This document shows, piece by piece, positions 2,101-18,707 of a DNA stretch of 64,000 nucleotides. The stretch spans positions 35,169 through 99,168 of the forward strand of contig CANCOC010000002.1 of NCBI GenBank assembly GCA_947379755.1, read 5' to 3'. The number at the start of each line of letters is the position of its first letter. Within the stretch, counting starts at the first letter, position 1. The notes beneath the pieces are model-generated. The model searched no databases and was not told the DNA's origin. It saw nothing but the letters and a program-made list of their open reading frames with translations. This stretch comes from Alcaligenaceae bacterium. GTDB taxonomy: Bacteria; Pseudomonadota; Gammaproteobacteria; Burkholderiales; Burkholderiaceae_B. A program made the position numbers and the translations under genes.

Positions 2101-2186
2101 TGACAGACGTTGTGCTGTTTCAGTAGCGAGGTGCTCAGGCATCTTGGCAGTGAGCCTCACGTTTTATTCGACACACGGAGAGAGGG

Positions 2187-3002: not shown

Positions 3003-3007
3003 GGGGC

Positions 3008-3766: not shown

Positions 3767-3782
3767 TTACAGGGGTTCAACC

Positions 3783-4214: not shown

Positions 4215-4645
4215 AACTTTCGACATCTTTTTGGTCTCATCACCCTGAGCCAGAACACATGATGGAAATCAATACAACGCCATTGATTGACATCATGCTC
4301 GTTCTCCTGATCATGTTAATTATTACGATTCAGCAGCCACTTCACTCGGTCAAACTTGCTCTCCCACAAAACACCCTTCCCGCTCATCAAGCGCGACCAG
4401 TCTTGATCCGAATAGAAGTCGACCAGCACAACACGGTCAGTGTGGATGGAGCACCCATGCCTAACACCATCGCGACCGATCAAGCATTCCTTGAAATTGC
4501 AAAAAAATCGCCACAGCCGGAATTACACCTTCAGGTACATCCGCTTGCGCGTTACGACACAATGCTCAAGCTACTTGCACAGTCGCAACGTCATGGTTTA
4601 CATAAATTGGGGATTTTAGAAAACCTTCCGATTTCTGATGAGTAA
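4211..4645 (+). CDS. exbD: ExbD/TolR family protein (second copy)
   Basis: INTTPLIDIMLVLLIML motif; ATGA overlap with the first exbD. Confidence 0.93.
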   Translation: MKLSTSFWSHHPEPEHMMEINTTPLIDIMLVLLIMLIITIQQPLHSVKLALPQNTLPAHQARPVLIRIEVDQHNTVSVDGAPMPNTIATDQAFLEIAKKSPQPELHLQVHPLARYDTMLKLLAQSQRHGLHKLGILENLPISDE

Positions 4646-4671
4646 AATGCATACTTGGATATGGCAGCGCT

Positions 4672-4700
4672 ACATCATTCAAAGCCACATCATTCAAAGC
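4672..4700. repeat. Direct repeat ACATCATTCAAAGC x2 (15-nt period), intergenic
   Basis: Exact 14-nt copies at 4672-4685 and 4687-4700. Confidence 0.9.
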
Positions 4701-4795
4701 AATTCTGGCATGTTTATTGCTTATAAAATTTACTTTTAAATCAATCGCAGATATTTTCCAAGTTTTACAAACTCCCAAAATATTGGAGCAATTAC

Positions 4796-5596
4796 ATGTT
4801 TTTACAAATTCGACGTCGTGCCATCATTGCAGCCTGTACCCTGGGAATGAGTTTCGCAGCCCTAAGCGGTGCCCAGGCACAGAATGCTCTGGCTGACATC
4901 ATGGCAGCCAAAGTCATCAAGATTGGCATTCCTACAGACTTTCCTCCTTACGGTTTTGTCGGTCCAGACCTTCAACCACAAGGTCTGGATGTTGAAATGG
5001 GCAAATATATTGGTGAAAAACTTGGACTCAAAGTCGAACTGATCCCTGTCACATCCCCCAACCGCATCCCCTACCTCCAGACAAAACGTGCAGATCTGAT
5101 CATTTCAACACTTGGCAAAAGCCCTGAGCGTGAAAAAGTCATTGATTTCACCGCTGCATACGCACCGTTCTTCAGTGCAGTCTATGGACCTAAAACCCTT
5201 TCAATCAAAAGCTTTGCTGATCTGTCAGGCAAATCAGTCAGCGTGACACGTGGTGCCTTTGAAGATACAGATGTCACCAAAATGGCACCGCCAGATACAG
5301 ACATTAAGCGTTTTGAAGACAACAACGCGACCGTATCAGCATTTGTGTCCGGTCAGGCGAACCTGATTGCAACCGGAGCTCCTGTTGCCGAAAGCATGAT
5401 GCAGCGCAACCCACAACTGGGCACGGAATACAAACTCCTGACAAGGCTGAGTGGTTGTTACATTGGGGTGCCAAAGGGTGAAGATGCCTTACGTACCAAA
5501 ATCAACGAAATCATTGCTACCGGGATCCAGAATGGTGATCTCGAAAAGCTATCTCAAAAATGGCTAAAGCGTGGATTAGGCGACTTGCCTGGTTAA
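4796..5596 (+). CDS. Polar amino-acid ABC transporter substrate-binding protein (orphan)
   Basis: Signal peptide; IGIPTDFPPYG, GLDVEMG, RIPYLQTKRADLI, IDFTAAY (SBP_bac_3 pattern). Confidence 0.92.
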   Translation: MFLQIRRRAIIAACTLGMSFAALSGAQAQNALADIMAAKVIKIGIPTDFPPYGFVGPDLQPQGLDVEMGKYIGEKLGLKVELIPVTSPNRIPYLQTKRADLIISTLGKSPEREKVIDFTAAYAPFFSAVYGPKTLSIKSFADLSGKSVSVTRGAFEDTDVTKMAPPDTDIKRFEDNNATVSAFVSGQANLIATGAPVAESMMQRNPQLGTEYKLLTRLSGCYIGVPKGEDALRTKINEIIATGIQNGDLEKLSQKWLKRGLGDLPG

Positions 5597-5803
5597 TGTT
5601 TATCCCGAGTGACAAAAAGTCACTCAGGAGCGACAAAAGCTCGCACTTAATCACTCAATCTCTGGAAAATTCTCAAATTCATGAGAATTCCCCGTGGCTA
5701 GCGTCTACAATTGGCGCCAGCCACGTGTCTAAAATCTCAGCAACAGGCTGGGATTTTTTCTTTTTACACTGGGGATTCCTTTACATATTGCCGAGCATTC
5801 ACG

Positions 5804-7105
5804 ATGACCGACTTGGATCAAGATAATCAGATCAATATTTTCCGATTCCTCCCGTGGATTGGTTTGTTATTTGTAATCGGTATGCTTGCAGCAGTCATTC
5901 TGAACATTCCTCCCAGAAGCATCACAATTGAGGGCGGACCCAAGGGCGGTTTTTTTGATACGACTGCTTTGTTCCTGAAAGAAAAGCTAAAAGAAGACGG
6001 CATTACTGTCAACGTCATCAATAACGAACAAACACTAAAAATCATCCAGAACGTTGACGATACGAAGTCGAATGTTGACATAGGCTTTATTGCGCATGAA
6101 GTTCCTCCCAACAAGTACAAAAATATTATGTCGCTGGGCTCCATCACCATGGACCCTCTTTTTATCTATCTCAGGCCCGGACTGAACATTTCCTCACCAA
6201 AAGAGTTTGTCGGTTTAAGGCTGGGTATCAGTCCTGTGAATACAGGCGCGAGAATTGTCACAGACGCAATACTTGATTTATACGACATCGATGGCAGCAA
6301 AGCCACTTTTGTGCCGTTGTCCTTAATGGATATGGCTGCTGCGATTGAAAAAGGCTCCATTGATGTAGCGTTTTTTTTACAACCCACGAACAATAAAGTA
6401 GTTGCACGCCTGGGAGAGTCAGGCACCGTCAAGTTAATGTCACTGGATCGCGTTGAAGCCATCACAAAAAAATACGGCTATTTGCACCACCTGACCATCG
6501 AGCCTGGTGCATTCAGTCTGGAAAAAGACTTGCCCGAGACTTCAATTGAAATGCTGGGTGTGCCTGTCACCGTGATTGCAAAAGACACTATGCACCCTGC
6601 CATTGTCACTGCTGTCAGCCTGGCCCTCAAGGACGCGTTTAGAGCACCCACACTTGTGACCAAGCGTGGTGCATTTCCGACCATGGATTATGAACGCGAT
6701 CTCGATATCGACCAGGATGCTGAAAAAATCTACAAAAACGGAACCGGCTATATCCCACCTCTTTATAAAGTACTGAACTTCTGGGTAGCTGGAGTCCTCG
6801 ACAAAATTCTCTTGCTGTTGAGCTTTTTATTGAGCGCCTCAATCGTATTCAGTTTTATTGGGTTCCCCTCGCCGTATCACATCTGGACGAACAGCGCCTC
6901 TGAACGATATCTGGTCACACTTGAATCTCTGTACAAAAAAGCGCAAAAACAACCGCTGACAGATAAAGAACTCGAAAGAATCAAAAAAATACGTGCCTAT
7001 TTTGATGAGGGCAACCATGCCAGCATCAAGGCCACAAAATTAATTACACACATCACATCCAGACAAGCTGAAATATCTACTTCGAAGAAAAGAAAATCAG
7101 CTTAA
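5804..7105 (+). CDS. TAXI-family (TRAP-type) solute-binding-like protein with N- and C-terminal TM segments
   Basis: GGPKGGFFD, TLKIIQNV, DIGFIA, SLGSITMDPLFI and LGISPVNTGA match TAXI SBPs; second hydrophobic helix KILLLLSFLLSASIVFSFIGF; start moved to ATG 5804. Confidence 0.78.
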   Translation: MTDLDQDNQINIFRFLPWIGLLFVIGMLAAVILNIPPRSITIEGGPKGGFFDTTALFLKEKLKEDGITVNVINNEQTLKIIQNVDDTKSNVDIGFIAHEVPPNKYKNIMSLGSITMDPLFIYLRPGLNISSPKEFVGLRLGISPVNTGARIVTDAILDLYDIDGSKATFVPLSLMDMAAAIEKGSIDVAFFLQPTNNKVVARLGESGTVKLMSLDRVEAITKKYGYLHHLTIEPGAFSLEKDLPETSIEMLGVPVTVIAKDTMHPAIVTAVSLALKDAFRAPTLVTKRGAFPTMDYERDLDIDQDAEKIYKNGTGYIPPLYKVLNFWVAGVLDKILLLLSFLLSASIVFSFIGFPSPYHIWTNSASERYLVTLESLYKKAQKQPLTDKELERIKKIRAYFDEGNHASIKATKLITHITSRQAEISTSKKRKSA

Positions 7106-7141
7106 TCAGATGGACTGTATCAATAACTTCTAGACTGAAAA

Positions 7142-8107
7142 ATGAAAATTCTGTTTTGTACTAAAAATGATATTTTCGGTGCCACGATTCTGAACTTCAT
7201 TTTGCCCAGACTTGCCCACCATCAAGTGAGAGTTTTACTCTCAGACAAGACACGGTCAGAAGAAAACAAAGTACCAGAACTCGTCGAAGAAAAATTTTTG
7301 GAACGGGATTTTCCTCTGAATGTTCTTTTTCCATTCATTGATGCAGCAGCCCCCATCACTGGACCGCTGCTGACATTTGAAGGCTGCGCACAAAAGTACG
7401 GAGTTGATATCCAGACAACGGTCAATATCAATGAACTCAAAAGCGAACAGATGATTGCCAACTGGGCACCTGACGTGATTGTGTCGGCACGATTCAGCCT
7501 GATTTTCAAAAAAAATATCGAAGCCATCCCTCGTCACGGTATCTTTAATATTCACCCGGGTGCCTTGCCTGGCTATGCGGGATTGTGTGCTCCGCTCAGG
7601 GGACTGCTCAATGCCGACAGTCAATTAGGCTGCACACTGCACAAAGTGGATATGGGTATAGACACCGGCCCCATCCACTCTGTTTCCTATATGCCAGCAT
7701 CACCTGAAAAATCAGTTTTCAGCCATATTTCAAACCTGTATGAAATGGGACTGACCCGGCTCATTGATTTGCTCAGGGAAATTGACTCTGGCCACCCACC
7801 TGTTCTGCAGCATCAGGATCCCGCAGACTTCAGATACTACCGCCTGCCTGGTGAGGAAGTTTTTGCAGAGCTTGCACAAAAAAATATCAAACCCGTTGCC
7901 TTTGATATTTACAGTCAGTTAGTTAAAAAGTTCTGTCCTGAAACCTTGTTGACGCAGATCGCCGCGTTATTGAATCCTGCAGCCCTGGCTCAACTCACAG
8001 ACTCTATCCATACCCATGGTATTGATGGCGCAGTCGGACACTACCGTGATGCGATTCATGCAGAGCTCAGCCTTAGTGAACAATCTCAGCCACTTTCAGC
8101 ACTCTGA
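7142..8107 (+). CDS. Formyltransferase-family protein (Fmt-like N-terminal domain)
   Basis: FNIHPGALPGYAGLCAP and GCTLHKVDMGIDTGPI folate-binding/catalytic motifs. Confidence 0.85.
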   Translation: MKILFCTKNDIFGATILNFILPRLAHHQVRVLLSDKTRSEENKVPELVEEKFLERDFPLNVLFPFIDAAAPITGPLLTFEGCAQKYGVDIQTTVNINELKSEQMIANWAPDVIVSARFSLIFKKNIEAIPRHGIFNIHPGALPGYAGLCAPLRGLLNADSQLGCTLHKVDMGIDTGPIHSVSYMPASPEKSVFSHISNLYEMGLTRLIDLLREIDSGHPPVLQHQDPADFRYYRLPGEEVFAELAQKNIKPVAFDIYSQLVKKFCPETLLTQIAALLNPAALAQLTDSIHTHGIDGAVGHYRDAIHAELSLSEQSQPLSAL

Positions 8108-9083
8108 TTGGCGGATAGTTCTTTAGTTCTGTTGCAACGCGCATGTTCACCACAAGTGAGAAGCCTGGTGGTGCAACAATCGGAATATCCTTGGGACTGG
8201 CTTTTTTGGTCAGAATGAGTTCAGCCTTGGAAGCCGTCAGTTGCCCGACTGTGTAATAGTGGTTCACCACACCGAACAATGCATCGGCTTCTTGCACAAC
8301 AGACTCTGATGTCGCAAGTACCGGCAAATGAAGATCCACGGCAGTCCGTGTGATCACAGCACGATTCAAAAGCAAAAAAGTATCAGGAGCAAAGTAGAGA
8401 AAATCAATCTTTTCTTTTGCAAGAGACTGAACGATGCCTGGCAGGCTCGATGCATCAGGCTTACCTGCCTGATCCAGCGGAACGACACGCTCGATCAATT
8501 CAAAACCGTATTTTTTTTGTGCGGCGCGCAGCTCATCCAGTACGACCTGAGAATTATTTTCAAGTGGATTTAGAATAAAGCCCACACGCTTGAAAGGCAT
8601 ATACAGTCTGGCAACATTTAGCTGCGTATCAACAGGAACAATATAAAGCGTTCCGCTGGCATTGCGCCCCGGAGAGGAGAGGCTTTTTACCAGGCCGGAA
8701 CCAACAGGCGTTGAGGCAATCATGAACAGTGCCGGGATATCCGTCACATATTTAGCCGGATTGGGATGATCAATCGTACCCAGCATTTCGAGAGAAACAG
8801 AAGTGCCCCACGTCACGAGGAGATCGGGCTTGCTGGCTTTAACCCTGGCGATAAAACCCGGTATCTTTTTGATGTCTGTCTGTACGTCAAGAATCTCAAT
8901 CTCAACAGGAATCTTGCGATCCACCCAGTAATCTTTAAAACCCTGACAGGCCTGCTCACATCCTCGATAAACCACCATCGTGATGCGAAAGGGTTTGACG
9001 TCTGCGGCCTGGACAACAGAAAAGGGACCGGCAACCAGGAAACATTGCAACGCCAGGCGTAAACCAATAAAAAATTTAACCAT
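8073..9083 (-). CDS. ABC_sub_bind-type periplasmic substrate-binding protein
   Basis: Signal peptide; DLLVTWGT, NASGT, GFILNPLENNS, YYTVGQLTASKAELIL and LVVNMRVATEL motifs; ATG 9083 overlaps the upstream stop. Confidence 0.85.
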   Translation of the reverse strand: MVKFFIGLRLALQCFLVAGPFSVVQAADVKPFRITMVVYRGCEQACQGFKDYWVDRKIPVEIEILDVQTDIKKIPGFIARVKASKPDLLVTWGTSVSLEMLGTIDHPNPAKYVTDIPALFMIASTPVGSGLVKSLSSPGRNASGTLYIVPVDTQLNVARLYMPFKRVGFILNPLENNSQVVLDELRAAQKKYGFELIERVVPLDQAGKPDASSLPGIVQSLAKEKIDFLYFAPDTFLLLNRAVITRTAVDLHLPVLATSESVVQEADALFGVVNHYYTVGQLTASKAELILTKKASPKDIPIVAPPGFSLVVNMRVATELKNYPPIRVLKVAEIVH

Positions 9084-11028
9084 GTGCAAGTACCCGACTT
9101 GTTGAGGATCGCAGCAACTGCACAGTACCTAATCCAAGAATTAAGACAATCATGCCGATCACAGCCGTCGCATCACGATAGCCAAGTGATGCAGACAAAA
9201 CAGCAGCCAGTACTGCCCCCAGAATCCCACCAACGCGTTCAAAAGTACGGGCCAGTGCCAATGCCCTGGAGGCCGGCACTCCAGGCATTTCACGTTTAAC
9301 AATATCGAGCAGCACGGTCATCATCGGGGTGAGCAACATGCTTTGTCCGAGACCAAAGCAGAGGATGACTCCAGCAAGTGCCAGAGGTGAGTTTAACCAG
9401 AGCATCAACAATCCGCCCGCACCACTGAGTAAAGCACCTGCCACAACAAGACAGGTTTTGGCATACAAACCGGGATCGAGGCGGCTGATCATTGCATTCC
9501 CCAGGGAAAGCAAGATGTAGTAAAGAATGAAGAACTGACCAATACTGGCCTGTGACAACTCATATTGCTGCAACAGTAATGGGGTAATGTAAAAAAGCAT
9601 GCCCGCCATCATCAGCTTGCCAGGCAATACGCCGCAAACCATAGAGAGCAGAACATGACGATTCTTCAATAATGCCCCAAAACCGGAAATGCCACCGGCA
9701 CTTTTATTAGTACTCTCCTCGGACATCGGCTGGGGAGGCATGATGACTTTGCTAAAAAACAGCCAGGACAACACGGCCATCAACGCAGCAAACAGCAAGG
9801 CAACAGGCTTGCCAAACATATCTGCGATGACCGCACCAACCGGAGCACCGCAGATGCATGCCGCAGTCACTGCAGCCACAAAAATAGAAAGTGCGCGCAT
9901 GTTCCCCTGATCATTTGCCGCAGTGCGTGCGATATATACCTGACAGGCGATAGTGGCCACCGCATAACCAAAGGCACTGATGGAGCGCCAGACCACAAGT
10001 TCCCAGACAGAATGCGAGAAGGCCAGACCACAGAGGCTGATCGTTGAAATCAGCACACTGAATCCAAAAGCCTTACGCAAGCCGAGTCGTTCAACCAGTC
10101 CGCTCCCAAACAACGTGCCAATACCAGCGACAAGCATGTACGCCATGATCGGGGCACTGATCGCCAAGTCTGCACTGAAGCGAGACGTGGGATCGACCAT
10201 TTCTTTGACATACAGGGTAAAGAAAGAGCGCAAAAGCTCCTCGGAGAACACAAAAAGAAATAGTGCTGTACGCACGTCGCGCGCCTGTGGCTGGTACCAC
10301 GCCTGAGTCGTCTGCTTAACAAGCTCACTTTCAGAAAATTGCTTGCGATACTGGGCAATTTTTGCATTCGAGCTACTCAGTAGCTCAGAAAACGGACCGT
10401 TCTCGGAGTGATGAAGATCGCGTTCAATCTGTCCTGACTGGATTCCCCGGATCATTGCACGCCAGGTATCAAACGGGCGAATGAGCCAGCGAACCATAAA
10501 AAACAAAGCGATCTCCAGTCCGGCGATCAGTGCGACGATCGATACAACCAGGGCATCACCGAGAATGACCTGGAGTTTTTCCTGAATGTAAGAAGCTCTC
10601 ACGGCAACGATCACGTGTGGGGCATTGTCGCTGGCCTCAATTTCCTGCAAGACGACATCTTCGGGATGAGCGGTCGAAAAATTCGATCGTAATTTTGCAT
10701 ATTCCCTCGAACCCTCCCGCTGAACCTTGATAAAGGCGATTTCTGGATTTTCATCCAGTGTGTCGGCGAGGTAGTCCTCCATGCCAACAAGTGACTCATA
10801 AGGAATCCCTAATTTGACAGCATCTTCTACAGTGGTGCGCACTGAAGTTGCAATGACACTGGATTTTGCAAGAACCTGGGGTAGCAGAATTTTTTCGAAA
10901 TGCGATAGCGTCAGCCAGGTCAGTAAGGCAACTGCACAGATACTGCAAACGAGAAAAACTGCATAGGACTTTTGCGCAAGCAAGCGCTCAACACTACTTT
11001 TGAGTGGCGGGTTTGACTGGAGCTTCAT
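9076..11028 (-). CDS. Fusion of TM-periplasmic-TM-HAMP-like module and 12-TM MFS permease
   Basis: About 250 aa N-terminal extension with two TMs and a HAMP-like segment (LIRPFDTWRAMIRGIQSGQIERD...FSELLSSSN), then an MFS domain with a motif A variant (GSGLVERLGLRK). Confidence 0.85.
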   Translation of the reverse strand: MKLQSNPPLKSSVERLLAQKSYAVFLVCSICAVALLTWLTLSHFEKILLPQVLAKSSVIATSVRTTVEDAVKLGIPYESLVGMEDYLADTLDENPEIAFIKVQREGSREYAKLRSNFSTAHPEDVVLQEIEASDNAPHVIVAVRASYIQEKLQVILGDALVVSIVALIAGLEIALFFMVRWLIRPFDTWRAMIRGIQSGQIERDLHHSENGPFSELLSSSNAKIAQYRKQFSESELVKQTTQAWYQPQARDVRTALFLFVFSEELLRSFFTLYVKEMVDPTSRFSADLAISAPIMAYMLVAGIGTLFGSGLVERLGLRKAFGFSVLISTISLCGLAFSHSVWELVVWRSISAFGYAVATIACQVYIARTAANDQGNMRALSIFVAAVTAACICGAPVGAVIADMFGKPVALLFAALMAVLSWLFFSKVIMPPQPMSEESTNKSAGGISGFGALLKNRHVLLSMVCGVLPGKLMMAGMLFYITPLLLQQYELSQASIGQFFILYYILLSLGNAMISRLDPGLYAKTCLVVAGALLSGAGGLLMLWLNSPLALAGVILCFGLGQSMLLTPMMTVLLDIVKREMPGVPASRALALARTFERVGGILGAVLAAVLSASLGYRDATAVIGMIVLILGLGTVQLLRSSTSRVLAHG

Positions 11029-11786
11029 TCGCTGCTTTTTTGTTTGAGTAACGCGCTGGAATTCGCAACCTGGGAGGCGAGCTCGCAGATTTCGCTACGA
11101 CGCCCCCCTACTCGCACCAGAGTCTCTCCTCGCAAAATTGCGCTGGCAGAACGAATCAACCGGTCGAGATTCAAGAAAAGGTAGAGCAGAATCGGAGCAA
11201 GCAATAGCACCGTGGCCAGACACAGCACAAACCAGAACTGAAAAAGATGGGTACGTGCATCGGAGAGCAAGGTCTTGGCTGCAGAGTTATCTACCCTCAG
11301 GACGAGATCTGCCACCACATGACCAATCGGGTCCTTGATCGACAGGACCTGTACAAAACCAGTGGCATGAGCGGGATCGAACCACATATCTTTGCGAGAC
11401 CGGCGGTGCGCCTCCAGTACCCGGAGGGTGTCGGCCTCAGTCGGAGCAGACCCAGCTTCCCAGTAAACTTTACCTGAGTCGGACTGCTCATCAACCAACT
11501 GTACAGACTGGATATCAGGGTATTTTTCAATCGCACTTTCTAGCATGGACTTTAACTGGGCATTGCTCTGAATTGGTAAACCCAGGGCCAGAGATCGCTC
11601 GACAGCGCCTTTCAGGGACTGTGCGGAAACACTGATCCGCGAAGAGTTGACCTCAAAAAGTAGCGTTTGAAAACGATAAAACTGAAGCACTGCAAGCAGG
11701 CTGAGTAAGAAAAACAGGATTCCCACGACAACGGAAGCCATTTTAAGCTTTTGGAACATGATGTTCAGGGTACTTTTTAAATTCAA
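11025..11786 (-). CDS. Membrane protein, TM-periplasmic-TM-(degenerate HAMP), with no output domain
   Basis: Two TM helices; periplasmic region aligns without gaps to that of the downstream MFS fusion; ATGA overlap. Alternative ATG start at 11759. Confidence 0.75.
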   Translation of the reverse strand: MNLKSTLNIMFQKLKMASVVVGILFFLLSLLAVLQFYRFQTLLFEVNSSRISVSAQSLKGAVERSLALGLPIQSNAQLKSMLESAIEKYPDIQSVQLVDEQSDSGKVYWEAGSAPTEADTLRVLEAHRRSRKDMWFDPAHATGFVQVLSIKDPIGHVVADLVLRVDNSAAKTLLSDARTHLFQFWFVLCLATVLLLAPILLYLFLNLDRLIRSASAILRGETLVRVGGRRSEICELASQVANSSALLKQKSSE

Positions 11787-11887
11787 TCATCTATGCAGCG
11801 AGGCATTGATTCTAATCGTTAGCGTGGGTGTGCGCTAGACTAGAGGGCTATTTGAAATGATTATTGATACCTGACTGGAACACCCCC

Positions 11888-12349
11888 ATGGACTTACCTT
11901 CACATCAACTGAGCATGACGGTGTTGATGACCCCGGATATGGCAAACTTTTCCGGCAAAGTACATGGCGGATCCATCCTTAAACTGCTGGACCAGGTTGC
12001 CTATGCCTGCGCGAGTCGCTACGCGGGCAGATATGTGGTCACCATGAGCGTGGACCAAGTGACATTTCGACAACCTATTCATGTAGGCGAACTTGTCACA
12101 TTTATGGCCTGCATCAACTTCACCGGCAACTCCTCAATGGAAGTCGGCATCAAGGTGATTGCCGAGGACATCCGCAACAAGATCGTCCGCCACGTAAACA
12201 GTTGTTTTTTCACCATGATCGCAGTCGATGATGAAGGCAAACCGGTCAAAGTCCCGATGCTGATTCCAGCTTCTGCTGATGAACGCCGCCGCTTCGCAGA
12301 TGCAGAAAGCCGAAGGGCCGGGCGACGCGAACAGGAAAAGAAGATTTAA
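11888..12349 (+). CDS. Acyl-CoA thioesterase (hotdog, YciA-like)
   Basis: ANFSGKVHGGSILKLLDQVAYACA and SSMEVGIKV motifs; start moved to ATG 11888. Confidence 0.93.
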   Translation: MDLPSHQLSMTVLMTPDMANFSGKVHGGSILKLLDQVAYACASRYAGRYVVTMSVDQVTFRQPIHVGELVTFMACINFTGNSSMEVGIKVIAEDIRNKIVRHVNSCFFTMIAVDDEGKPVKVPMLIPASADERRRFADAESRRAGRREQEKKI

Positions 12350-12372
12350 ATACAAAAAAAAGGGGATGACAA

Positions 12373-13620
12373 TTGACTCAGAAACTCACCAGCCAAAGGT
12401 ATTTTGGCTGGAATATCGTCGCAGCATCTGCCCTGCTAACCCTGCTTACAGTCGGGATGAGAATGGGCATAGGCCCATTTTTTCTTCCAATGGCTCACGA
12501 CCTCGGCTTTAGCCGGAGCCTGCTTGCAGGAATCATTTCGATTGGCATGTTGTTCTACGGCCTGGGCATGCCACTTGCCGGCTGGCTGGTCGCAAAACAC
12601 GGCACAAAATTTGTCCTTCTGACCGGTACGGTGATTGTGATTATTTCAGTCATCTGGACGATCAATTCCCGAACTCCGCTCACTTTTCTGCTCTCTTTTG
12701 GCATCCTCATGTCAGTTGGACTGGCCTTCACGAGCCCGGTGGCACTGACTCCGCTCATTACACGCTGGTTCACACGCCAGCGGGGAATGGCACTATTTTT
12801 CCTGTCGACCGGATCGATGGCGGGCATTGCGGTCATGACACCAGTGCTGACGTTTGCCATTCAATCAATTGGCTGGCAATCCACGCTTCTCTGGTTCGCC
12901 GGAGTCTTTGCAGTCGTCACGGTGCCCGTTGCATTGTTCGTGATGCGCGAAAACGCTCCACCGGGCGCTGATCTGCTGCCTGGTGCAGTCAACAGTGTTT
13001 CGTCTCGTCCTGGGGCAATTCTGCCTGGCATGGCCTTTACACAGGCATTGCGCACCCTCCCGTTCTGGAAAATCTGTCTTGGATTATTTGCCTGTGGCTT
13101 CAGTATGAATCTGCTGGGTACGCATGGTATGCCCATGCTGATGGATCACGGCTTTGATGCAATGACGAGTTCAACGGGAATTGGACTGATCGGGCTGGTG
13201 GCGATTTTCAGCACAATGTTTCTTGGGCGTCTGGCTGACAGAATTCCCCGTCGCAACATTCTTGCTACGATTTACCTGATTCGCGGCCTGGGATTTTTTG
13301 CATTACTGGTCGTTGGCACCCACTTTGAACTCTATATTGCTGCGGCAATCGGTGGCATCGTATGGGCAGGCAGTATTGCAATGTCATCTGCCATACTTGC
13401 TGATATTTATGGCGTCAGACTGGTCGGCATTCTGTATGGCTGGGCGTATCTGTCTCATCAGATAGGCGCCATGATCAGCTCCTGGCTGGGTGGCTGGGGC
13501 TACGAAGCCTTTGGCACGCACTGGGTCGCATTCGGAATGGCAGGTATCCTTTTGTTTATCGCGGCGTCGGTATCCATGCGCCTTCCGCAAAAAGGCTACA
13601 CACTGGTTCCAGCGACGTGA
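12373..13620 (+). CDS. MFS transporter
   Basis: 12 hydrophobic segments; GWLVAKHGTK and GRLADRIPRR motif A repeats. Confidence 0.92.
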   Translation: MTQKLTSQRYFGWNIVAASALLTLLTVGMRMGIGPFFLPMAHDLGFSRSLLAGIISIGMLFYGLGMPLAGWLVAKHGTKFVLLTGTVIVIISVIWTINSRTPLTFLLSFGILMSVGLAFTSPVALTPLITRWFTRQRGMALFFLSTGSMAGIAVMTPVLTFAIQSIGWQSTLLWFAGVFAVVTVPVALFVMRENAPPGADLLPGAVNSVSSRPGAILPGMAFTQALRTLPFWKICLGLFACGFSMNLLGTHGMPMLMDHGFDAMTSSTGIGLIGLVAIFSTMFLGRLADRIPRRNILATIYLIRGLGFFALLVVGTHFELYIAAAIGGIVWAGSIAMSSAILADIYGVRLVGILYGWAYLSHQIGAMISSWLGGWGYEAFGTHWVAFGMAGILLFIAASVSMRLPQKGYTLVPAT

Positions 13621-13659: not shown

Positions 13660-14925
13660 ATGCAAACTGCCCTTTCGTATCTGGTTGCGGCACGTCACCA
13701 GGAAATCCACGAACTTGAGCAGCTCAACCGTACCTGCGAGCTTGTGCGGGCAGTCAGCGAACTTGTCCATCGCCTGCAAAACGAACGTGGTGTCTCCAAT
13801 GTTTATCTGGCATCTGGAGGACAGCATGATGCTGCTCGCTTCGATGCACGGATTACCTCAAGTGAGCTGACGAAAGCGGACGTGCTCAAGTGGCTGGAGG
13901 GCATCCAGCCTGGGGAAGGACTGGCAGGCGGCTCGCGCTTGTTCACTCGCATTGCGATTGCCCTGAACGCACTTGAAGCACTGCCGCACATCCGCGAAAA
14001 TATCCGCAAACGGGACGGCTCACCGCTCAAGTCCAGCGAGCGCTACACGCGCGTGATCGGATCACTGCTATCGCTTGTGTTTGAAGCCGCCGATGTAAGC
14101 GTTGAACCAAAAGTTGCACGCCTGCTGGTCGCCTTATTCAATCTGATGCAAGCAAAAGAATATGCCGGACAGGAGCGCGCCACAGGCGCAAGAGCCTTCG
14201 CTATCGGACAGGTCTGTGCCGGGGACCTGAAATCACTGACGGATCTGATTGATCTGCAGGAGCAGTGCTTTGCCCGGTTCGAAACATTTTGCTCACAGAG
14301 CGTCCTCAGCCAGTGGCAGGCGTTGCAGGCGACCATGCCGCTAGCAGACATCGAGCGTATGCGCAGAAAACTGATGGCAGCAAATATGCAGCTGGATTCT
14401 GCACTGAGCGAGACATGGTTTGAGACATGTTCGCAACGCATGGACGATATTCATCTCGTAGAAACCCATTTGACAACCGGTTTGCAACAAGCCTGTCAGC
14501 TGCGCATTGCCCAGACACAATCCGAGCTTGAGGATCAACAGGCTCTCTTGACCGACCTGTCAAACGCCAGGTCGATGGCCCCCTCCTGCGTCCTGGTCTC
14601 GGAGCTTGCGCAGGCACAGGGGCAGCCGGAACTTCTGGCGGGTCACGCAATGGGATCACGATTGACTGGAGCTATTTTTGATACGCTCCAGACCCAGACG
14701 CGTCACTTGCAGGCCGTGAGCGAAGAACTGATTTCTGTGCGGGCGGCGCTTGATGAGCGCAAACATATCGAGCGGGCGAAAGGCGTGCTGATGGCGCACC
14801 AGTCCCTGAGCGAAGAAGAAGCCTATAGATTGCTGCGTCAAAAAGCGATGAATCAAAATCTGCGTCTCGTTGATGTGGCGCAATCTGTTTTATCGATCGC
14901 AGAGTTTTTACCAAAACGCAGCTGA
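13660..14925 (+). CDS. nasR: Nitrate/nitrite-sensing antiterminator NasR (NIT + ANTAR)
   Basis: NIT motifs LVHRLQNERG and LMQAKEYAGQERA; C-terminal ANTAR ERKHIERAKGVLMAHQSLSEEEAYRLLRQKAMNQN. Confidence 0.95.
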   Translation: MQTALSYLVAARHQEIHELEQLNRTCELVRAVSELVHRLQNERGVSNVYLASGGQHDAARFDARITSSELTKADVLKWLEGIQPGEGLAGGSRLFTRIAIALNALEALPHIRENIRKRDGSPLKSSERYTRVIGSLLSLVFEAADVSVEPKVARLLVALFNLMQAKEYAGQERATGARAFAIGQVCAGDLKSLTDLIDLQEQCFARFETFCSQSVLSQWQALQATMPLADIERMRRKLMAANMQLDSALSETWFETCSQRMDDIHLVETHLTTGLQQACQLRIAQTQSELEDQQALLTDLSNARSMAPSCVLVSELAQAQGQPELLAGHAMGSRLTGAIFDTLQTQTRHLQAVSEELISVRAALDERKHIERAKGVLMAHQSLSEEEAYRLLRQKAMNQNLRLVDVAQSVLSIAEFLPKRS

Positions 14926-14980
14926 CTCTAATTCCGACCACTCTCACACTCAGGCTATCCCATACGCGCCATGCGACACA

Positions 14981-15026
14981 GCACCAGCCAGGTGCGCCAG
15001 TTCGTGCGCACGCACCAAAGCAGTGC
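14981..15026 (+). promoter_or_regulatory. Tandem NtrC-type enhancer sites
   Basis: GCACC-agcca-GGTGC (14981-14995) and GCAC-caaagca-GTGC (15012-15026), 31 bp apart, about 115-150 bp upstream of a sigma-54 promoter. Confidence 0.8.
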
Positions 15027-15108
15027 GTACCTCTATCGTTAACCGTTCCCGCTACCTGTGCTCAAACTCCCACTTACAGAGCCGCGCACACAGAAGAAAC
15101 AGCGGCTC

Positions 15109-15124
15109 TGGCACACTTTTTGCT
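15109..15124 (+). promoter_or_regulatory. Sigma-54 promoter of cobA/cysG-A
   Basis: TGGCAC-ACTTT-TTGCT with exact -24 GG / -12 GC spacing. Confidence 0.88.
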
Positions 15125-15141
15125 CTAGCCTGAGCAATGGC

Positions 15142-15237
15142 GGACCAAAGACGGTTCGTCAGCAAACGGGCTGATTGCCATTGTTTGATTGCTTCGGACA
15201 ACGGCGTCCATTTTGGTTTTATAACCCTCGAATGGAC
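15142..15237 (+). promoter_or_regulatory. ANTAR-type leader RNA of cobA
   Basis: Hairpins GGACC-AAAGAC-GGTTC and GGAC-AACGGC-GTCC with A1/G4 hexaloops; GTCCATT can alternatively pair with AATGGAC next to the start codon. Confidence 0.65.
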
Positions 15238-15247
15238 TTCGATCATC

Positions 15248-16078
15248 ATGAACATCCCTGATTCCGTCAATCGCCTTGCACAAACAGTCAATATTCAAGC
15301 CTCTCGCATGCCTGGCCAGGTTGCGCTGGTTGGTGCAGGCCCGGGAGACCCTGAGATGCTGACACTCAAGGCTGCCAAAGCAATCTCACAGGCGACCGTG
15401 CTGCTGATTGACGACCTGGTCAATGAAGAGGTGCTCATCCATGCTTCACCTCAGGCGCGCCTGATTCATGTGGGCAAACGTGGCGGTTGCGCCTCAACAC
15501 CGCAAAACCTGATTCTGAAACTGATGGTCCAGGAAGCAAAAAAAGGAGAAGCTGTTGTTCGTCTCAAAGGCGGCGACCCCTTCATCTTTGGTCGGGGTGG
15601 AGAAGAAGTGGAGTACCTTCAGGCCGCCGGAATCACAGTCACTGTCATCAATGGCATTACCTCTGGTCTGGCGGCAGCTAGTGCGCTGAATATTCCACTG
15701 ACACACCGCGATGCCGCGCACGGCGTGATATTTGTCACCGGTCATAACAAGCCAGGTGATGCGGGAATTAACTGGGCGGCATTGTCACGCAGCGCGTATC
15801 AGGCCAAGCTCACAATGGTGATCTACATGGGAGTGTCCAGTGCGAATTCAATCGCTGAAGGGCTCATGCAGGGTCTGCCCAGCAACACACCAGTCGCCAT
15901 CGTGCAGAACGCCAGTCTGAGCACTCAGCGTCACGCAGTCTGCGAACTGAGACAGCTGGTCGCCACCCTCACCAGTGAGCAGCTGGCCAGTCCCTCGGTG
16001 ATCATTGTTGGCAACGTCCTGTCAGGCATCGCCCAACTACAAATTCGTAAAGAAACGAGAGTCTCTGCTGCCGCCTGA
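15248..16078 (+). CDS. cobA: Uroporphyrinogen-III C-methyltransferase (siroheme synthesis, CobA/CysG-A)
   Basis: VALVGAGPGDPEMLTLKA, VVRLKGGDPFIFGRGGEE and VIYMGV motifs; start moved to ATG 15248, downstream of the promoter and leader. Confidence 0.95.
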   Translation: MNIPDSVNRLAQTVNIQASRMPGQVALVGAGPGDPEMLTLKAAKAISQATVLLIDDLVNEEVLIHASPQARLIHVGKRGGCASTPQNLILKLMVQEAKKGEAVVRLKGGDPFIFGRGGEEVEYLQAAGITVTVINGITSGLAAASALNIPLTHRDAAHGVIFVTGHNKPGDAGINWAALSRSAYQAKLTMVIYMGVSSANSIAEGLMQGLPSNTPVAIVQNASLSTQRHAVCELRQLVATLTSEQLASPSVIIVGNVLSGIAQLQIRKETRVSAAA

Positions 16079-16083
16079 ACAGG

Positions 16084-16099
16084 TGGCATGAATTTTGCT
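16084..16099 (+). promoter_or_regulatory. Sigma-54 promoter of nirB
   Basis: TGGCAT-GAATT-TTGCT with correct -24/-12 spacing. Confidence 0.8.
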
Positions 16100-16118
16100 T
16101 GGAAATAATGAAAGGCCA

Positions 16119-16173
16119 AAGCAACGATGCTTGGGCGATTGACCTGAATTAGGCTTTACGGACAACGGCGTCC
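16119..16173 (+). promoter_or_regulatory. ANTAR (NasR) dual-hairpin antitermination motif
   Basis: AAGC-AACGAT-GCTT (16119-16132) and GGAC-AACGGC-GTCC (16160-16173), both with A1/G4 loops; the second overlaps the terminator's 5' arm. Confidence 0.88.
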
Positions 16174-16219
16174 GTCATTCTCGAGAATATCTCGGGGAAT
16201 GACGGACGCCGTTTTTTTT
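16164..16219 (+). terminator. Attenuator terminator in the nirB leader
   Basis: AACGGCGTCCGTCATTC ... GAATGACGGACGCCGTT 17-bp stem followed by a T run. Confidence 0.92.
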
Positions 16220-16235
16220 GTTTACTGGACTCATC

Positions 16236-18707
16236 ATGAAAAAACAGAAACTCGTGCTTGTCGGAAATGGAATGGCCGGAGTGCGGACCATCGAGGAGTT
16301 ACTCAAACTCGCCCCTGACCTCTATGACATCACGATCTTTGGTGCTGAGCCACACGGCAACTACAACCGTATCATGCTCTCGCCTGTGCTGGCTGGAGAG
16401 ATGACATTGCCTGAAATTATGCTCAATGATCTGGACTGGTATCGCGAGCACGGCATCACATTGCATGCTGGTAAAAAAGTCACCCAGATTGACCGGATAC
16501 GGCGTCGTGTCATTGCAGACGATGGCACCGAGGCCGAATACGATCGCCTGTTGCTCGCGACGGGATCGACCCCGTTTATCCCACCGATTCCTGGCAACGA
16601 CTTGCCGGGTGTGCTGGGCTACCGGGATATTGCAGACACCGAAGCAATGATCGATGCTGCAGCACGTTACAAGCACGCCGTGGTGATCGGCGCGGGACTG
16701 CTGGGACTGGAAGCTGCCAATGGTCTGATGCTGCGCGGCATGAGCGTCACCGTTGTTCATCTGGCCGACTGGATCATGGAGCGTCAACTCGATCGCGTAG
16801 CAGCCGATATGCTGCAAAGTTCACTTGAAGCCAAAGGGATGAGGTTCCTGCTCGGACGCAACACAGAAGCCTTGCTCTCAGGCGAAAATGGACGTGTGAA
16901 CGCTGTACGCCTGAAGGATGGCATGCAGATGCCTGCTGATCTCGTTGTGATTGCAGCCGGCATCCGCCCTGCTTACGCCCTGGCTGAGTCAGCCGGCTTA
17001 TTCTGCGGAACTGGCCGGGTGCGCGGCATCCATGTGTCCGATACTTTGCAAACAATTACCGATCCAAGCATCTATGCCCTGGGCGAATGCGCGGTTCACC
17101 GAGGGATCGCCTACGGACTGGTGGCGCCTCTGTTTGAGCAAGGCAAGGTATGCGCCAATCATCTGGCCAACTTCGGCATTGCGTATTACAAAGGCTCCGT
17201 TACTTCAACCAAACTCAAGGTCACAGGCATTGACGTGTTTTCTGCCGGCGATTTCAGCGGAGGTCCTGAGACAGAAGATATCCTTTTACACGACAAACAG
17301 GCTGGCCTCTACAAACGCATTGTCATCAAGAATGACCGTGTAATTGGTGCAGTCCTTTACGGCGACACAACGGATGGAGGCTGGCATTTCCAGTTAATGA
17401 AGGACGCTCAGGATATCCGCGAGATCCGCAGTCAGCTTTTGTTTGGCAACTCATTCGCCAATCAGCATCTGGGAGATGCGGGTCACAAAGGACAGAACCT
17501 GGCAGTCTCGATGGCAGACACCGCCGAGGTCTGTGGCTGCAACGGTGTGTGCAAGGGCACGATCGTCAAGTCGATCAAAGAGAATGGTCTCTTTACTCTG
17601 GATGAGGTCCGCAAGCACACCAAGGCCTCGTCATCATGTGGTTCGTGCACCGGACTGGTCGAACAAATCCTGGCATCCACGATTGGTGGTGCGTATACAC
17701 CCACGGCACAAGATACCAAGCCGGTGTGCGCCTGCACGGAGCATTCGCATAAAGTCGTACGCGAAACCATCGTGGCGCGTCACCTGATCACAAAGGAAAC
17801 CGTGTTTGAAGCACTGGGCTGGAAAACACCGAACGGATGCGAAAAGTGCCGCCCTGCGATCAACTATTACCTGCTTTCAAGCTTTCCACATGAAGCGATC
17901 GATGATCCACAGTCTCGCTACATCAATGAGCGTGCGCACGCCAATATCCAGAAAGACGGCACCTACTCAGTTGTGCCACGCATGTGGGGCGGGCTGACTA
18001 CACCGTCCGAGCTGCGCGCGATTGCAGACGCTGCAGATAAATATCATGTCCCGACCGTCAAGGTGACGGGTGGTCAGCGGATTGACCTGCTTGGTATCAA
18101 AAAGGAAAATCTGCCTGCCATCTGGTCTGATCTCAATGCTGCCGGCATGGTCTCGGGCCACGCTTACGGCAAGTCCATCCGCACGGTCAAGACCTGCGTC
18201 GGTGCAGAGCACTGCCGTTTTGGCACGCAGCACTCCATGGACACCGGCATCATGCTCGAAAAGATGTTGTTCGATATGTACGCACCACACAAGGTCAAAC
18301 TCGCAGTCTCAGGCTGTCCGCGCAACTGTGCGGAGTCTGGCATCAAGGATGTCGGCATTATCGGTGTTGACTCAGGCTTTGAAATTTACGTCGGTGGAAA
18401 TGGCGGGATCAAAACAGAGGTTGCACAGTTTTTTTGCAAAGTCACGACCAACGAAGAGGTGATGGAGTTCAGTGGCGCCTTCTTGCAGCTTTACCGTGAA
18501 GAAGGCTGGTATCTGGAGCGGACTTCGCACTACCTGGAGCGAGTGGGTCTGAGCCACGTCAAAAATAAGGTACTTGAGGATACTGCAGGCCGCAAGGCAC
18601 TGTATGAGCGTCTGATCGACTCACTAAAAAATGCCCGCGACCCCTGGGAGCTGGCCCGTGAAGAACAAGCGATCAAACAGTTCATCCCGATTCTGGTCGA
18701 AGCCTGA
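16236..18707 (+). CDS. nirB: Assimilatory NAD(P)H nitrite reductase large subunit
   Basis: FAD and NAD Rossmann motifs (LVGNGMAG, VIGAGLLGLEAA), BFD-like CGCNGVC/CGSC, siroheme-[4Fe-4S] CVGAEHC and SGCPRNC; start moved to ATG 16236. Confidence 0.97.
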   Translation: MKKQKLVLVGNGMAGVRTIEELLKLAPDLYDITIFGAEPHGNYNRIMLSPVLAGEMTLPEIMLNDLDWYREHGITLHAGKKVTQIDRIRRRVIADDGTEAEYDRLLLATGSTPFIPPIPGNDLPGVLGYRDIADTEAMIDAAARYKHAVVIGAGLLGLEAANGLMLRGMSVTVVHLADWIMERQLDRVAADMLQSSLEAKGMRFLLGRNTEALLSGENGRVNAVRLKDGMQMPADLVVIAAGIRPAYALAESAGLFCGTGRVRGIHVSDTLQTITDPSIYALGECAVHRGIAYGLVAPLFEQGKVCANHLANFGIAYYKGSVTSTKLKVTGIDVFSAGDFSGGPETEDILLHDKQAGLYKRIVIKNDRVIGAVLYGDTTDGGWHFQLMKDAQDIREIRSQLLFGNSFANQHLGDAGHKGQNLAVSMADTAEVCGCNGVCKGTIVKSIKENGLFTLDEVRKHTKASSSCGSCTGLVEQILASTIGGAYTPTAQDTKPVCACTEHSHKVVRETIVARHLITKETVFEALGWKTPNGCEKCRPAINYYLLSSFPHEAIDDPQSRYINERAHANIQKDGTYSVVPRMWGGLTTPSELRAIADAADKYHVPTVKVTGGQRIDLLGIKKENLPAIWSDLNAAGMVSGHAYGKSIRTVKTCVGAEHCRFGTQHSMDTGIMLEKMLFDMYAPHKVKLAVSGCPRNCAESGIKDVGIIGVDSGFEIYVGGNGGIKTEVAQFFCKVTTNEEVMEFSGAFLQLYREEGWYLERTSHYLERVGLSHVKNKVLEDTAGRKALYERLIDSLKNARDPWELAREEQAIKQFIPILVEA

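What the first reader, a model, noticed from the sequence alone, without database searches (positions are those of the whole stretch)
10700..11640. The two membrane proteins of the operon carry paralogous periplasmic domains (heterodimeric receptor?)
Gapless alignment by eye of SVIATSVRTTVEDAVKLGIPYESLVGMEDYLADTLDENPEIAFIKV (MFS fusion) with SVSAQSLKGAVERSLALGLPIQSNAQLKSMLESAIEKYPDIQSVQL (upstream protein) gives 13/46 identities, including SVxAxS, VE, LGxP and PxI, at the same distance from TM1. HAMP signalling needs a dimer and MFS permeases are usually monomers. A stand-alone paralog supplying the second half of the four-helix bundle would solve this (inference).
Basis: partly seen in the sequence, partly recalled or inferred. 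Interest (0 to 1): 0.62.

Follow-up and report, generated by a model that had tools for sequence, protein, structure and literature searches.

The report
Paired sensor modules on MFS transporter
Two adjacent membrane proteins, a small output-less one and the front end of an MFS transporter, carry copies of one ancient receptor module and probably pair as a two-part receptor that, with a neighbouring binding protein, controls or feeds the transporter; I found no published description of such a system.

Summary
The 13/46 identities are at the stated coordinates. On identity count alone they are only modestly unusual (11 of 1000 shuffles reach 13). By alignment score the periplasmic parts are clearly related (z = 8.6).

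With broad family profiles the similarity covers the whole module: TM1, a periplasmic Cache/PAS-like domain, TM2 and a helix-loop-helix tail (hhalign 99%, E 3.6e-18, 233 columns). A and B are each other's best non-self hits in the whole genome.

A tree splits A-type and B-type modules cleanly (100/100) with mirrored subclades. This indicates one ancient duplication followed by co-divergence.

- In 19 of 19 contexts a stand-alone A is directly followed by a B-type sensor-MFS gene. A PF04392 binding protein follows wherever the contig continues.
- Natural A-B-MFS single-chain fusions arose at least three times. One has only about 12 residues between A's TM2 and B's TM1.

The heterodimer idea is therefore well supported by comparative genomics, but no interface was modelled or measured. 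The HAMP assignment is weak for A. HAMP is absent from some fusions, so the HAMP-specific argument does not apply to the whole family.

I found no published description. Earlier notes of this scan report the same trio in other genomes.

The parts
11025..11759 (-). Gene A: 244-aa output-less sensor stub (TM1, periplasmic Cache/PAS-like domain, TM2, helix-loop-helix tail). The start is taken at the ATG that gives the conserved MFQKLKM N-terminus.
   Evidence: ORF. Homologues of 241-248 aa start at MFQKLKM. There is no Pfam or NCBIfam family. AF2 model has pLDDT 68. Foldseek finds WalK/YycG, KinD and Tlp3 Cache domains at E 2e-6 to 1e-3.
11676..11738 (-). A, TM1 (about residues 8-28)
   Evidence: Hydropathy; continuous helix 2-58 in the model.
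11250..11675 (-). A, periplasmic Cache/PDC-like domain (about residues 29-170).
   Evidence: Secondary structure is long helix, helix, two strands, helix, three strands. Foldseek hits are extracellular Cache/PAS sensor domains. 8 of 72 family members weakly match dCache_1.
11172..11246 (-). A, TM2 (about residues 172-196)
   Evidence: Hydropathy; helix 159-209.
11028..11171 (-). A, cytoplasmic helix-connector-helix tail (degenerate HAMP-like, residues 197-244). The stop TGA at 11025-11027 overlaps B's ATG (ATGA).
   Evidence: Helices run to 209 and span 223-239 with a low-confidence loop between them. L198, D199, A205, L209, G211, S222, E223, L227 and A228 are conserved in at least 90% of homologues. 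The tail aligns co-linearly with B's HAMP-like region, but the match is weak when the tail is tested alone. Overlap sequence.
9076..11028 (-). Gene B: 650-aa fusion of a sensor module (TM1, reduced periplasmic domain, TM2, HAMP-like segment) with a full MFS_1 permease
   Evidence: ORF. MFS_1 E 2.9e-35. N-terminal module conserved in 27 homologues. AF2 model of residues 1-250.
10903..10965 (-). B, TM1 (about residues 22-42)
   Evidence: Hydropathy; helix 13-72.
10573..10902 (-). B, periplasmic domain (about residues 43-152).
   Evidence: hhalign of periplasmic columns alone gives 97.6%, E 4.4e-12. The predicted alpha/beta pattern is like A's but lacks A's helix 108-121 and one strand. Foldseek is not significant; the best hits are Cache domains at E 0.06-0.4.
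10489..10572 (-). B, TM2 (about residues 153-180)
   Evidence: Hydropathy; helix 145-198.
10330..10488 (-). B, HAMP-like helix-connector-helix (about residues 181-233), with invariant W181, P185, W189, G195, G199 and G211-P212-F213
   Evidence: Invariant columns. Helices run to 198 and span 214-233. Pfam HAMP_2 reaches only E 0.13. B-type proteins of distant relatives carry weak Pfam HAMP hits at the same position.
9079..10296 (-). B, MFS permease domain (about residues 245-650)
   Evidence: PF07690 MFS_1 matches residues 256-583, E 2.9e-35.
8073..9089 (-). Gene C: secreted PF04392 (ABC_sub_bind) solute-binding protein. No ABC permease or ATPase gene lies beside it. Its start (TTG 9089 or ATG 9083) overlaps B's stop (9076-9078).
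   Evidence: PF04392 E 7.8e-22. Overlap sequence. C follows B in every locus long enough to show it.
7142..8107 (+). Gene D: formyltransferase-like protein. It converges on C and the 3' ends overlap by 35 nt. It is conserved with the trio in this subfamily.
   Evidence: Formyl_trans_N E 1.3e-16. Conserved in L002-L007 and L009, and next to the fused system of G145.
5711..7105 (+). Gene E: TAXI/NMT1-like binding domain between an N-terminal and a C-terminal TM segment. It is conserved with the trio in this subfamily.
   Evidence: NMT1_3 and TIGR02122 hits. Hydropathy peaks at about residues 41-73 and 354-388. Conserved in L002-L004, L006 and L007.

Best explanation
A and the first ~235 residues of B are paralogous copies of one receptor module: TM1, a periplasmic Cache/PDC-like domain, TM2 and a HAMP-type helix-loop-helix.

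The duplication is ancient, and both copies have been kept side by side ever since. A has no output. B's module is fused to a complete MFS permease.

The most likely arrangement (inferred) is that A pairs with B's N-terminal module as a pseudo-symmetric heterodimer. The two periplasmic domains would sit side by side on a four-helix TM bundle, playing the role that a homodimer plays in WalK, CitA or KinD-type sensors. This would give one MFS domain per receptor.

The co-translated orphan PF04392 binding protein C probably docks, ligand-loaded, on this asymmetric periplasmic pair. The conformational change would pass through TM2 (and the HAMP-like segments where present) directly into the MFS domain and gate transport. 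Alternatively, C hands its ligand to the permease.

Shown here: paralogy, the Cache-like fold of A, the conserved trio, translational coupling and recurrent fusions. Inferred: direct A:B contact, docking of C, and gating of transport.
For: Paralogy:
- hhalign 99%, E 3.6e-18 over 233 columns.
- Periplasmic columns alone E 4.4e-12, against 0.32 for the reversed control.
- A and B are reciprocal best non-self hits genome-wide.
- B-type proteins that were not in the profile match the A profile at 23-64 bits, some over the full module, such as L013_B residues 16-265.

Fold:
- The AF2 model of A matches WalK/YycG, KinD and Tlp3 Cache sensor domains.

Obligate partnership:
- All 19 stand-alone A genes with a readable downstream region are followed at once by a B-type gene.
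- The stop and start codons overlap.
- PF04392 follows B wherever the contig continues.

One ancient duplication with co-divergence:
- The A and B modules split at 100/100 support, and their subclades mirror each other.

Gene fusions (Rosetta-stone evidence):
- Single-chain A-B-MFS proteins P0082, P0091, P0095, P0100, P0152, P0192 and P0212 are among the top 150 representatives.
- P0100 and P0192 are each seen on three contigs.
- Further fused forms occur in genomes G145 and G636.
- The fusions fall in at least three separate, supported clades.
- In G145 only about 12 residues separate A's TM2 from B's TM1, so the four TM helices must lie together.

Background:
Against: - No direct evidence of an A:B interface.
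- Fusions and co-occurrence fit an A2B2 or looser complex as well as a 1:1 heterodimer.
- L014 carries an A-A tandem followed by a B-type module without MFS, on a short contig. This does not fit a simple 1:1 scheme.
- B's periplasmic domain is shortened here, and its model finds no significant structural match.
- HAMP is not confirmed by Pfam in A and is missing from several fusions.
- Some MFS proteins do dimerise (PMC8154325), so B homodimers are possible.
- The ligand, the transport direction and the role of C are unknown.
Confidence: 0.65

Rival explanations
1. A and B are paralogues but do not form a heterodimer. B homodimerises through its own Cache/TM/HAMP module, as ordinary sensors do, giving two MFS domains per receptor. 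A forms a separate homodimer that acts as an accessory or competing receptor: for example, it could titrate the binding protein C or contact B laterally in an A2B2 assembly.
For: - Canonical Cache-HAMP receptors are homodimers (established knowledge).
- Some MFS proteins dimerise (PMC8154325).
- B-type proteins of typical relatives have a complete HAMP of their own.
- A-A tandem proteins exist.
Against: - It does not explain why an output-less copy has been retained next to B in 19 of 19 contexts since a single ancient duplication.
- It does not explain why A and B modules were fused in that order at least three times, once with a 12-residue loop that forces the TM helices together.
Confidence: 0.22
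2. The trio is a binding-protein-dependent importer in which A and B's N-terminal module serve mainly as a docking scaffold for C, as the Q/TctB-type small subunits do in TRAP and TTT systems. On this reading they are not a signalling receptor. The Cache-like domains bind no ligand, and the HAMP-like parts are structural relics.
For: - C is an orphan PF04392 protein with no ABC partner genes in the cluster.
- B's periplasmic domain is reduced.
- HAMP-like segments are dispensable in the fused forms.
- A new binding-protein-plus-secondary-carrier pairing (TAXI-GltS) was recognised only in 2025, by the same kind of coupling and fusion evidence (PMC12344293).
Against: - All known binding-protein-dependent secondary carriers are elevator-type, not rocker-switch MFS (PMC12344293).
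- B-type HAMP is well conserved in most split systems.
- This rival overlaps with the best explanation on A:B pairing. It differs only in what the pair does.
Confidence: 0.1
3. The similarity is chance or only the generic resemblance of any TM-sensor-TM protein, and A is an unrelated small membrane protein.
For: 13/46 identities is reached by 1.1% of shuffles. No Pfam model links the two proteins.
Against: - Profile-profile E 3.6e-18, with a clean reversed control.
- Reciprocal best hits among 13,851 ORFs.
- SW z = 8.6.
- Cross-profile hits in independent loci.
Confidence: 0.01

Closest known systems
WalK/YycG, KinD, CitA/DcuS-type transmembrane sensors (TM, single Cache/PDC domain, TM, HAMP)
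   Same: Same module order. The model of A matches the WalK and KinD extracellular domains. The long N-terminal helix, which forms the dimer interface in those sensors, is the best conserved stretch shared by A and B.
   Different: Those are homodimers with a kinase output. Here one copy has no output, the other is fused to an MFS permease, and the two copies are distinct, anciently diverged genes.
Binding-protein-dependent receptors (LuxP-LuxQ, TorT-TorS)
   Same: A periplasmic binding protein is encoded next to a membrane receptor that has a PAS/Cache-like periplasmic domain. The binding protein probably presents the ligand.
   Different: Their output is a histidine kinase, not a transporter. 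The binding protein here is PF04392. The receptor is probably a heterodimer of paralogues. The resemblance rests on my knowledge of these systems and was not tested here.
Binding-protein-dependent secondary transporters: TRAP, TTT and TAXI-GltS (PMC12344293)
   Same: An orphan binding protein is translationally coupled to a secondary carrier. Small extra TM subunits accompany the carrier. Fusion proteins in other genomes serve as evidence of partnership.
   Different: Those carriers are elevator-type with DctQM, TctAB or GltS folds. This carrier is a rocker-switch MFS, and the extra subunits are receptor modules.
MFS carriers with accessory membrane proteins (MCT1-basigin; PMC8154325)
   Same: A separate small membrane protein with an extracytoplasmic domain associates with an MFS carrier.
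   Different: Those are eukaryotic, with a single-TM Ig-domain chaperone unrelated to the carrier. Here the accessory protein is a paralogue of the carrier's own N-terminal receptor module.

Membership tests
Cache/PDC (extracytoplasmic PAS-like) sensor domains | Alpha/beta PAS-like fold with a long N-terminal helix, lying between two TM helices | tested here: met
   A: the AF2 model (pLDDT 68) has helix, helix, 2 strands, helix, 3 strands, helix. Foldseek finds WalK, KinD and Tlp3 at E 2e-6 to 1e-3. Model confidence is only moderate.
Cache/PDC (extracytoplasmic PAS-like) sensor domains | The same fold in B's periplasmic domain | tested here: inconclusive
   The B(1-250) model has pLDDT 67 and a shorter alpha/beta domain. 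The best Foldseek hits are Cache domains, but at E 0.06-0.4. Membership follows mainly from homology to A.
Cache/PDC (extracytoplasmic PAS-like) sensor domains | Match to a curated Cache profile (dCache_1, sCache families) | tested here: not met
   No Pfam family matches A or B's N-terminus at E <= 10 other than noise. Only 8 of 72 relatives match dCache_1 weakly (best 9.3e-5), and one each matches sCache_4, PhoQ_Sensor and CusS. The domain is not covered by an existing model.
HAMP domain (PF00672 / PF18947) | Profile match at or above the curated threshold, directly after TM2 | tested here: not met
   B: HAMP_2 at E 0.13, 12.7 bits against a cut-off of 24.3. A: no hit. Only 1 of 72 relatives matches HAMP, at 0.0033. 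Precomputed weak PF00672 hits exist in the B-type proteins of L013 and L028.
HAMP domain (PF00672 / PF18947) | About 50 residues of helix, connector, helix with a conserved Pro near the start, Gly at the end of helix 1 and heptad hydrophobics | tested here: inconclusive
   B: P185, G195/G199 and G211-P212-F213 are invariant, with helices running to 198 and spanning 214-233. A: helix-loop-helix with conserved L198, A205, L209, G211 and L227 but no Pro. Tail-to-tail hhalign gives E 7.8e-4, probability 25%.
HAMP domain (PF00672 / PF18947) | Parallel four-helix bundle formed by two chains | not testable with these tools
Major facilitator superfamily (MFS_1) | Profile match above threshold and about 12 TM helices | tested here: met
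   PF07690 E 2.9e-35, 122 bits against a cut-off of 33.4, residues 256-583. Multiple hydropathy peaks lie between residues 288 and 642.
PF04392 ABC_sub_bind solute-binding proteins (protein C) | Profile match above threshold and a signal peptide | tested here: met
   PF04392 E 7.8e-22, 78 bits against a cut-off of 25.9. The N-terminus MVKFFIGLRLALQCFLVAGPFSVVQA looks like a signal peptide (read by eye).
PF04392 ABC_sub_bind solute-binding proteins (protein C) | Adjacent ABC permease and ATPase genes | tested here: not met
   Pfam searches of the neighbouring ORFs at 2-7105 and 11864-13620 found no ABC components. None appear in the related loci.
TRAP / TTT binding-protein-dependent secondary transporters | DctQ/DctM or TctA/TctB membrane subunits | tested here: not met
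   The membrane proteins of the cluster match only MFS families. The resemblance is functional only.

The most novel reading that the evidence does not exclude
The trio would be a previously undescribed class of transporter. A rocker-switch MFS carrier would be directly controlled, or fed, by an obligate heterodimeric Cache-HAMP receptor made of two anciently diverged paralogues: one free, one fused to the carrier. That receptor would read a dedicated periplasmic binding protein. This would be the first binding-protein-coupled MFS system and a natural case of a receptor whose output is transport rather than phosphorylation or second-messenger synthesis.
Probability: 0.4. Interest if true: 0.85.

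Novelty: new variant of a known kind. Interest (0 to 1): 0.68.

Why it matters
Bacterial transmembrane receptors of the Cache-HAMP type are known to drive kinases, chemotaxis arrays or cyclases, as homodimers. Here the same input machinery has been split into two non-identical subunits and wired to a transporter.

About 1000 sequence clusters at 50% identity carry the A-type protein, yet only about 1-2% of the sampled genomes of the phylum have it.

If the pair is a true heterodimer, two consequences follow:
- It shows how an asymmetric receptor can read a monomeric binding protein and act on a single carrier domain.
- It opens a directly testable case of ligand-gated or binding-protein-dependent MFS transport, which is not among the accepted transporter classes (TRAP, TTT, TAXI-GltS; PMC12344293).

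The natural single-chain fusions are ready-made constructs for structural work.

Tried and rejected
- **Curated families for A.** Pfam and NCBIfam found nothing above noise.
- **PDB sequence search.** Profile searches with A1 and A3 found no relatives.
- **Structure search for B.** Foldseek with the B(1-250) model gave no significant hit, so the structural argument rests on A.
- **Tail-only comparison.** hhalign of the A tail against the B HAMP-like region was marginal. I therefore do not call A's tail a HAMP domain.
- **Own-genome search with the tool.** The search with A1 did not list B, probably because of its first-look filter. An exhaustive local hmmsearch of all six-frame ORFs did find B.
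- **Promoters and terminators.** The scan gave counts near shuffle expectation and no usable site.
- **Literature.** Searches for HAMP/Cache-MFS fusions, PF04392, transceptors and SBP-dependent MFS found no description of this system.
- **Other flanking genes.** TonB-ExbBD, SBP_bac_3, 4HBT thioesterase, the second MFS and the NasR-like gene are not conserved with the trio in related loci. I left them out of the system.
- **A as a decaying duplicate.** I considered and rejected this. A is conserved, co-diverges with B, and its tail holds residues that are at least 90% invariant.
Full report
**What is at the coordinates**

Three genes lie head to tail on the minus strand.
- A runs from 11759 to 11025 and encodes 244 aa from the ATG that gives the conserved MFQKLKM start.
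- B runs from 11028 to 9076 and encodes 650 aa.
- C runs from 9089/9083 to 8073 and encodes about 336 aa.

A's stop overlaps B's start (ATGA). B's stop lies inside C's first codons.

Pfam recognises only MFS_1 in B (residues 256-583, E 2.9e-35) and PF04392 ABC_sub_bind in C. A has no family at all.

Hydropathy gives A two TM segments around a domain of about 140 residues. B has two TM segments around a domain of about 110 residues, ahead of the MFS helices.

**The observation**

They share 13/46 gapless identities, starting about 12-14 residues after TM1 in both proteins.

- The identity count alone is only mildly unusual: 11 of 1000 shuffles reach it.
- The Smith-Waterman score of the periplasmic parts alone is 72 against 28.5 +/- 5.1 (z = 8.6, 0 of 2000 shuffles).
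- BLASTP gives E 6e-6 over 75 residues.

**Profile tests**

- Close homologues only (A1 with 22 sequences, A3 with 10): hhalign gives 78%, E 1.9e-5 over 70 columns (a similar result).
- A full HMMER scan of 1.84 billion representatives with the A profile found 984 proteins at E <= 1e-3. Most are stand-alone proteins of 230-310 aa.
- Broad profiles (141 A-type sequences; 25 B-type N-terminal modules): hhalign reaches 99.0%, E 3.6e-18 over 233 columns. It aligns A 1-239 with B 15-233, which covers TM1, the periplasmic domain, TM2 and the tail (earlier version).
- Periplasmic columns alone give 97.6%, E 4.4e-12. The reversed-sequence controls give E 0.32 for the periplasmic columns and 0.026 for the whole module.
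- In an exhaustive search of all 13,851 six-frame ORFs of the genome, B is the best non-self hit of the A profile (44 bits, E 1.1e-11; next best 18.6 bits). A is the best non-self hit of the B profile (25.8 bits; next best 22.2 bits). The narrow A1 profile, which contains no fusion proteins, also ranks B second.
- B-type proteins from loci that were not used in the profiles match the A profile at 23-64 bits. In one case the match covers the whole module (L013_B residues 16-265).

**What the module is**

The AlphaFold2 model of A has moderate confidence (pLDDT 68). It shows a long helix running out of TM1, a short helix, two strands, a helix, three strands, then a long helix through TM2, a low-confidence loop and a final helix.

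Foldseek against the PDB finds WalK/YycG (including a full TM-sensor-TM-HAMP model), KinD, Tlp3 and other extracellular Cache/PAS sensor domains, at E 2e-6 to 1e-3. Eight of 72 family members weakly match dCache_1.

B(1-250) models the same way, but its domain is shorter and lacks A's helix 108-121 and one strand. Its Foldseek hits are the same kind of domains but are not significant.

**The HAMP question**

After TM2, B has a strongly conserved helix-connector-helix with invariant W181, P185, W189, G195, G199 and G211-P212-F213.

- In B, the Pfam HAMP_2 hit reaches only E 0.13.
- B-type proteins of more typical relatives carry sequences of canonical HAMP pattern and weak PF00672 hits.
- A's tail is a helix-loop-helix with conserved heptad hydrophobics. 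It aligns co-linearly with B's HAMP-like segment.
- On its own, however, that tail match is marginal (E 7.8e-4, probability 25%), and Pfam sees nothing in A.

I therefore call A's tail HAMP-like, not HAMP.

**Conservation of the pair**

Nine betaproteobacterial MAG loci found with the A alignment all carry A followed by B. Those that extend far enough also carry C, the convergent formyltransferase-like D and the TM-anchored TAXI-like E.

Distant A-family members, at about 20% identity, show the same order A, B-type (694-711 aa), PF04392, usually with 1-4 nt overlaps. So do three further genomes of the same order.

In all, 19 of 19 stand-alone A genes with a readable downstream region are followed at once by a B-type gene.

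The system is sparse and patchy. It occurs in 6 of 301 genomes of the order and 5 of 401 of the phylum.

**Fusions**

Seven of the top 150 representatives are proteins of 783-951 aa: P0082, P0091, P0095, P0100, P0152, P0192 and P0212. In each, an A-type module is followed by a B-type module and an MFS domain in one chain. The A profile matches both modules.

- P0100 and P0192 are each found on three contigs, and each is followed by PF04392.
- Genome G145 of the same order has an 825-aa fusion followed by a C homologue (268 bits) and a D homologue (167 bits).
- In the G145 protein only about 12 residues separate A's TM2 from B's TM1, and both HAMP-like segments are missing.
- G636 has an 856-aa open frame.

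**Tree**

A maximum-likelihood tree of 18 A-type and 18 B-type modules separates the two types with 100/100 support. Shared subclades appear on both sides: {window, P0025/P0059, P0041/P0068, fusion P0100} and {L012, L028, fusions P0091 and P0095}.

This indicates a single ancient duplication followed by co-divergence. Fusion occurred in at least three separate supported clades.

**Interpretation**

The comparative evidence consists of:
- an obligate neighbourhood;
- translational coupling;
- co-divergence since one duplication;
- repeated fusion in the order A then B, with a loop too short to let the TM helices separate.

This is what one expects of two subunits of one complex. It fits a pseudo-symmetric A:B receptor pair, with a four-helix TM bundle carrying two Cache-like domains and one MFS domain per receptor.

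**What is not shown**

- No interface was modelled. The two structure jobs went to the single chains.
- A2B2 or B2 plus accessory A2 remain possible.
- L014 has an A-A tandem followed by a B-type module without MFS, on a short contig.
- The HAMP-specific argument is weakened because some fusions have lost the HAMP-like segments.

The general premises hold. Most MFS carriers are monomers in detergent, though dimers and accessory subunits exist (PMC8154325). That HAMP is a two-chain four-helix bundle is established knowledge and was not tested here.

**Role of C and of the carrier (inferred)**

C is a secreted PF04392 protein without ABC partners. It is co-translated with B and present in every complete locus. 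The most economical model is that ligand-loaded C docks on the asymmetric periplasmic pair and that the signal goes straight into the MFS domain. Alternatively, the pair is a docking scaffold for delivery of substrate.

Known binding-protein-dependent secondary carriers (TRAP, TTT and, since 2025, TAXI-GltS) are all elevator-type (PMC12344293). An MFS version would be new.

Literature searches found no description of a Cache/HAMP-MFS fusion or of this trio.

Earlier AI notes of this scan describe the same trio in other genomes. They agree with this reading but are not independent evidence.

**Verdict**

- Observation: confirmed.
- Paralogy: established.
- Heterodimer: well supported by comparative genomics but untested physically.
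- HAMP rationale: only partly supported.
- Novelty: a new variant built from known parts, with a fair chance of being a new class of receptor-coupled transporter.

Noticed in passing
window 5711-8107 (+), genes E and D: In this subfamily the trio travels with two convergent genes. E is a TAXI/NMT1-like binding domain held between an N-terminal and a C-terminal TM segment, with a cytoplasmic tail of about 75 residues. D is a formyltransferase-like protein whose 3' end overlaps C's by 35 nt. A D homologue also follows C next to the fused system of G145.
   Followed up: partly
L012 10937-11671; L013 7912-8841; L015 9593-10687; L026 2187-3080: The gene after the PF04392 protein varies but is repeatedly a small-molecule group transferase: GNAT acetyltransferase, PanB-like hydroxymethyltransferase, OTCase-like carbamoyltransferase or formyltransferase. 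This hints that the transported ligand is an amine-type compound that is modified in the cytoplasm.
   Followed up: no
L012 4135-6954; L015 1935-4043: A secretin gene lies just upstream of the system in two unrelated loci. In L015 an NMT1_3 protein and a pentapeptide-repeat-like 288-aa protein lie between them.
   Followed up: no
L014 501-2512: This variant has no MFS on the contig. A 453-aa A-A tandem protein is followed by a 212-aa B-type module that ends just after TM2. P0118 is a second A-A tandem. This suggests that the sensor modules can work without a fused carrier.
   Followed up: partly
L027 (G280:C3) 5053-12504: A cluster of four consecutive ORFs carries A-type and/or B-type modules (264, 735, 686 and more than 652 aa). 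The last has both modules plus the start of an MFS domain, so the family has expanded locally.
   Followed up: no
window 2187-5596 (+): TonB, ExbB and ExbD genes, followed by an SBP_bac_3 binding protein, lie upstream of E. They are not conserved with the trio in related loci.
   Followed up: partly
window 13660-18707 (+): This stretch looks like a nitrate/nitrite assimilation block: a 421-aa ORF I read by eye as NasR-like, a cobA-like methyltransferase ORF and a nirB-like 829-aa ORF. It lies right of the divergent 4HBT thioesterase and second MFS gene. I ran no family search on these three ORFs, and they appear unrelated to the finding.
   Followed up: no
genome contigs C100 1912-4221 (-) and C76 2996-5026 (-): These are the next-best, weak hits of the A and B profiles in the genome (18.6 and 22.2 bits). 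They are probably ordinary Cache/HAMP sensors and were not examined.
   Followed up: no
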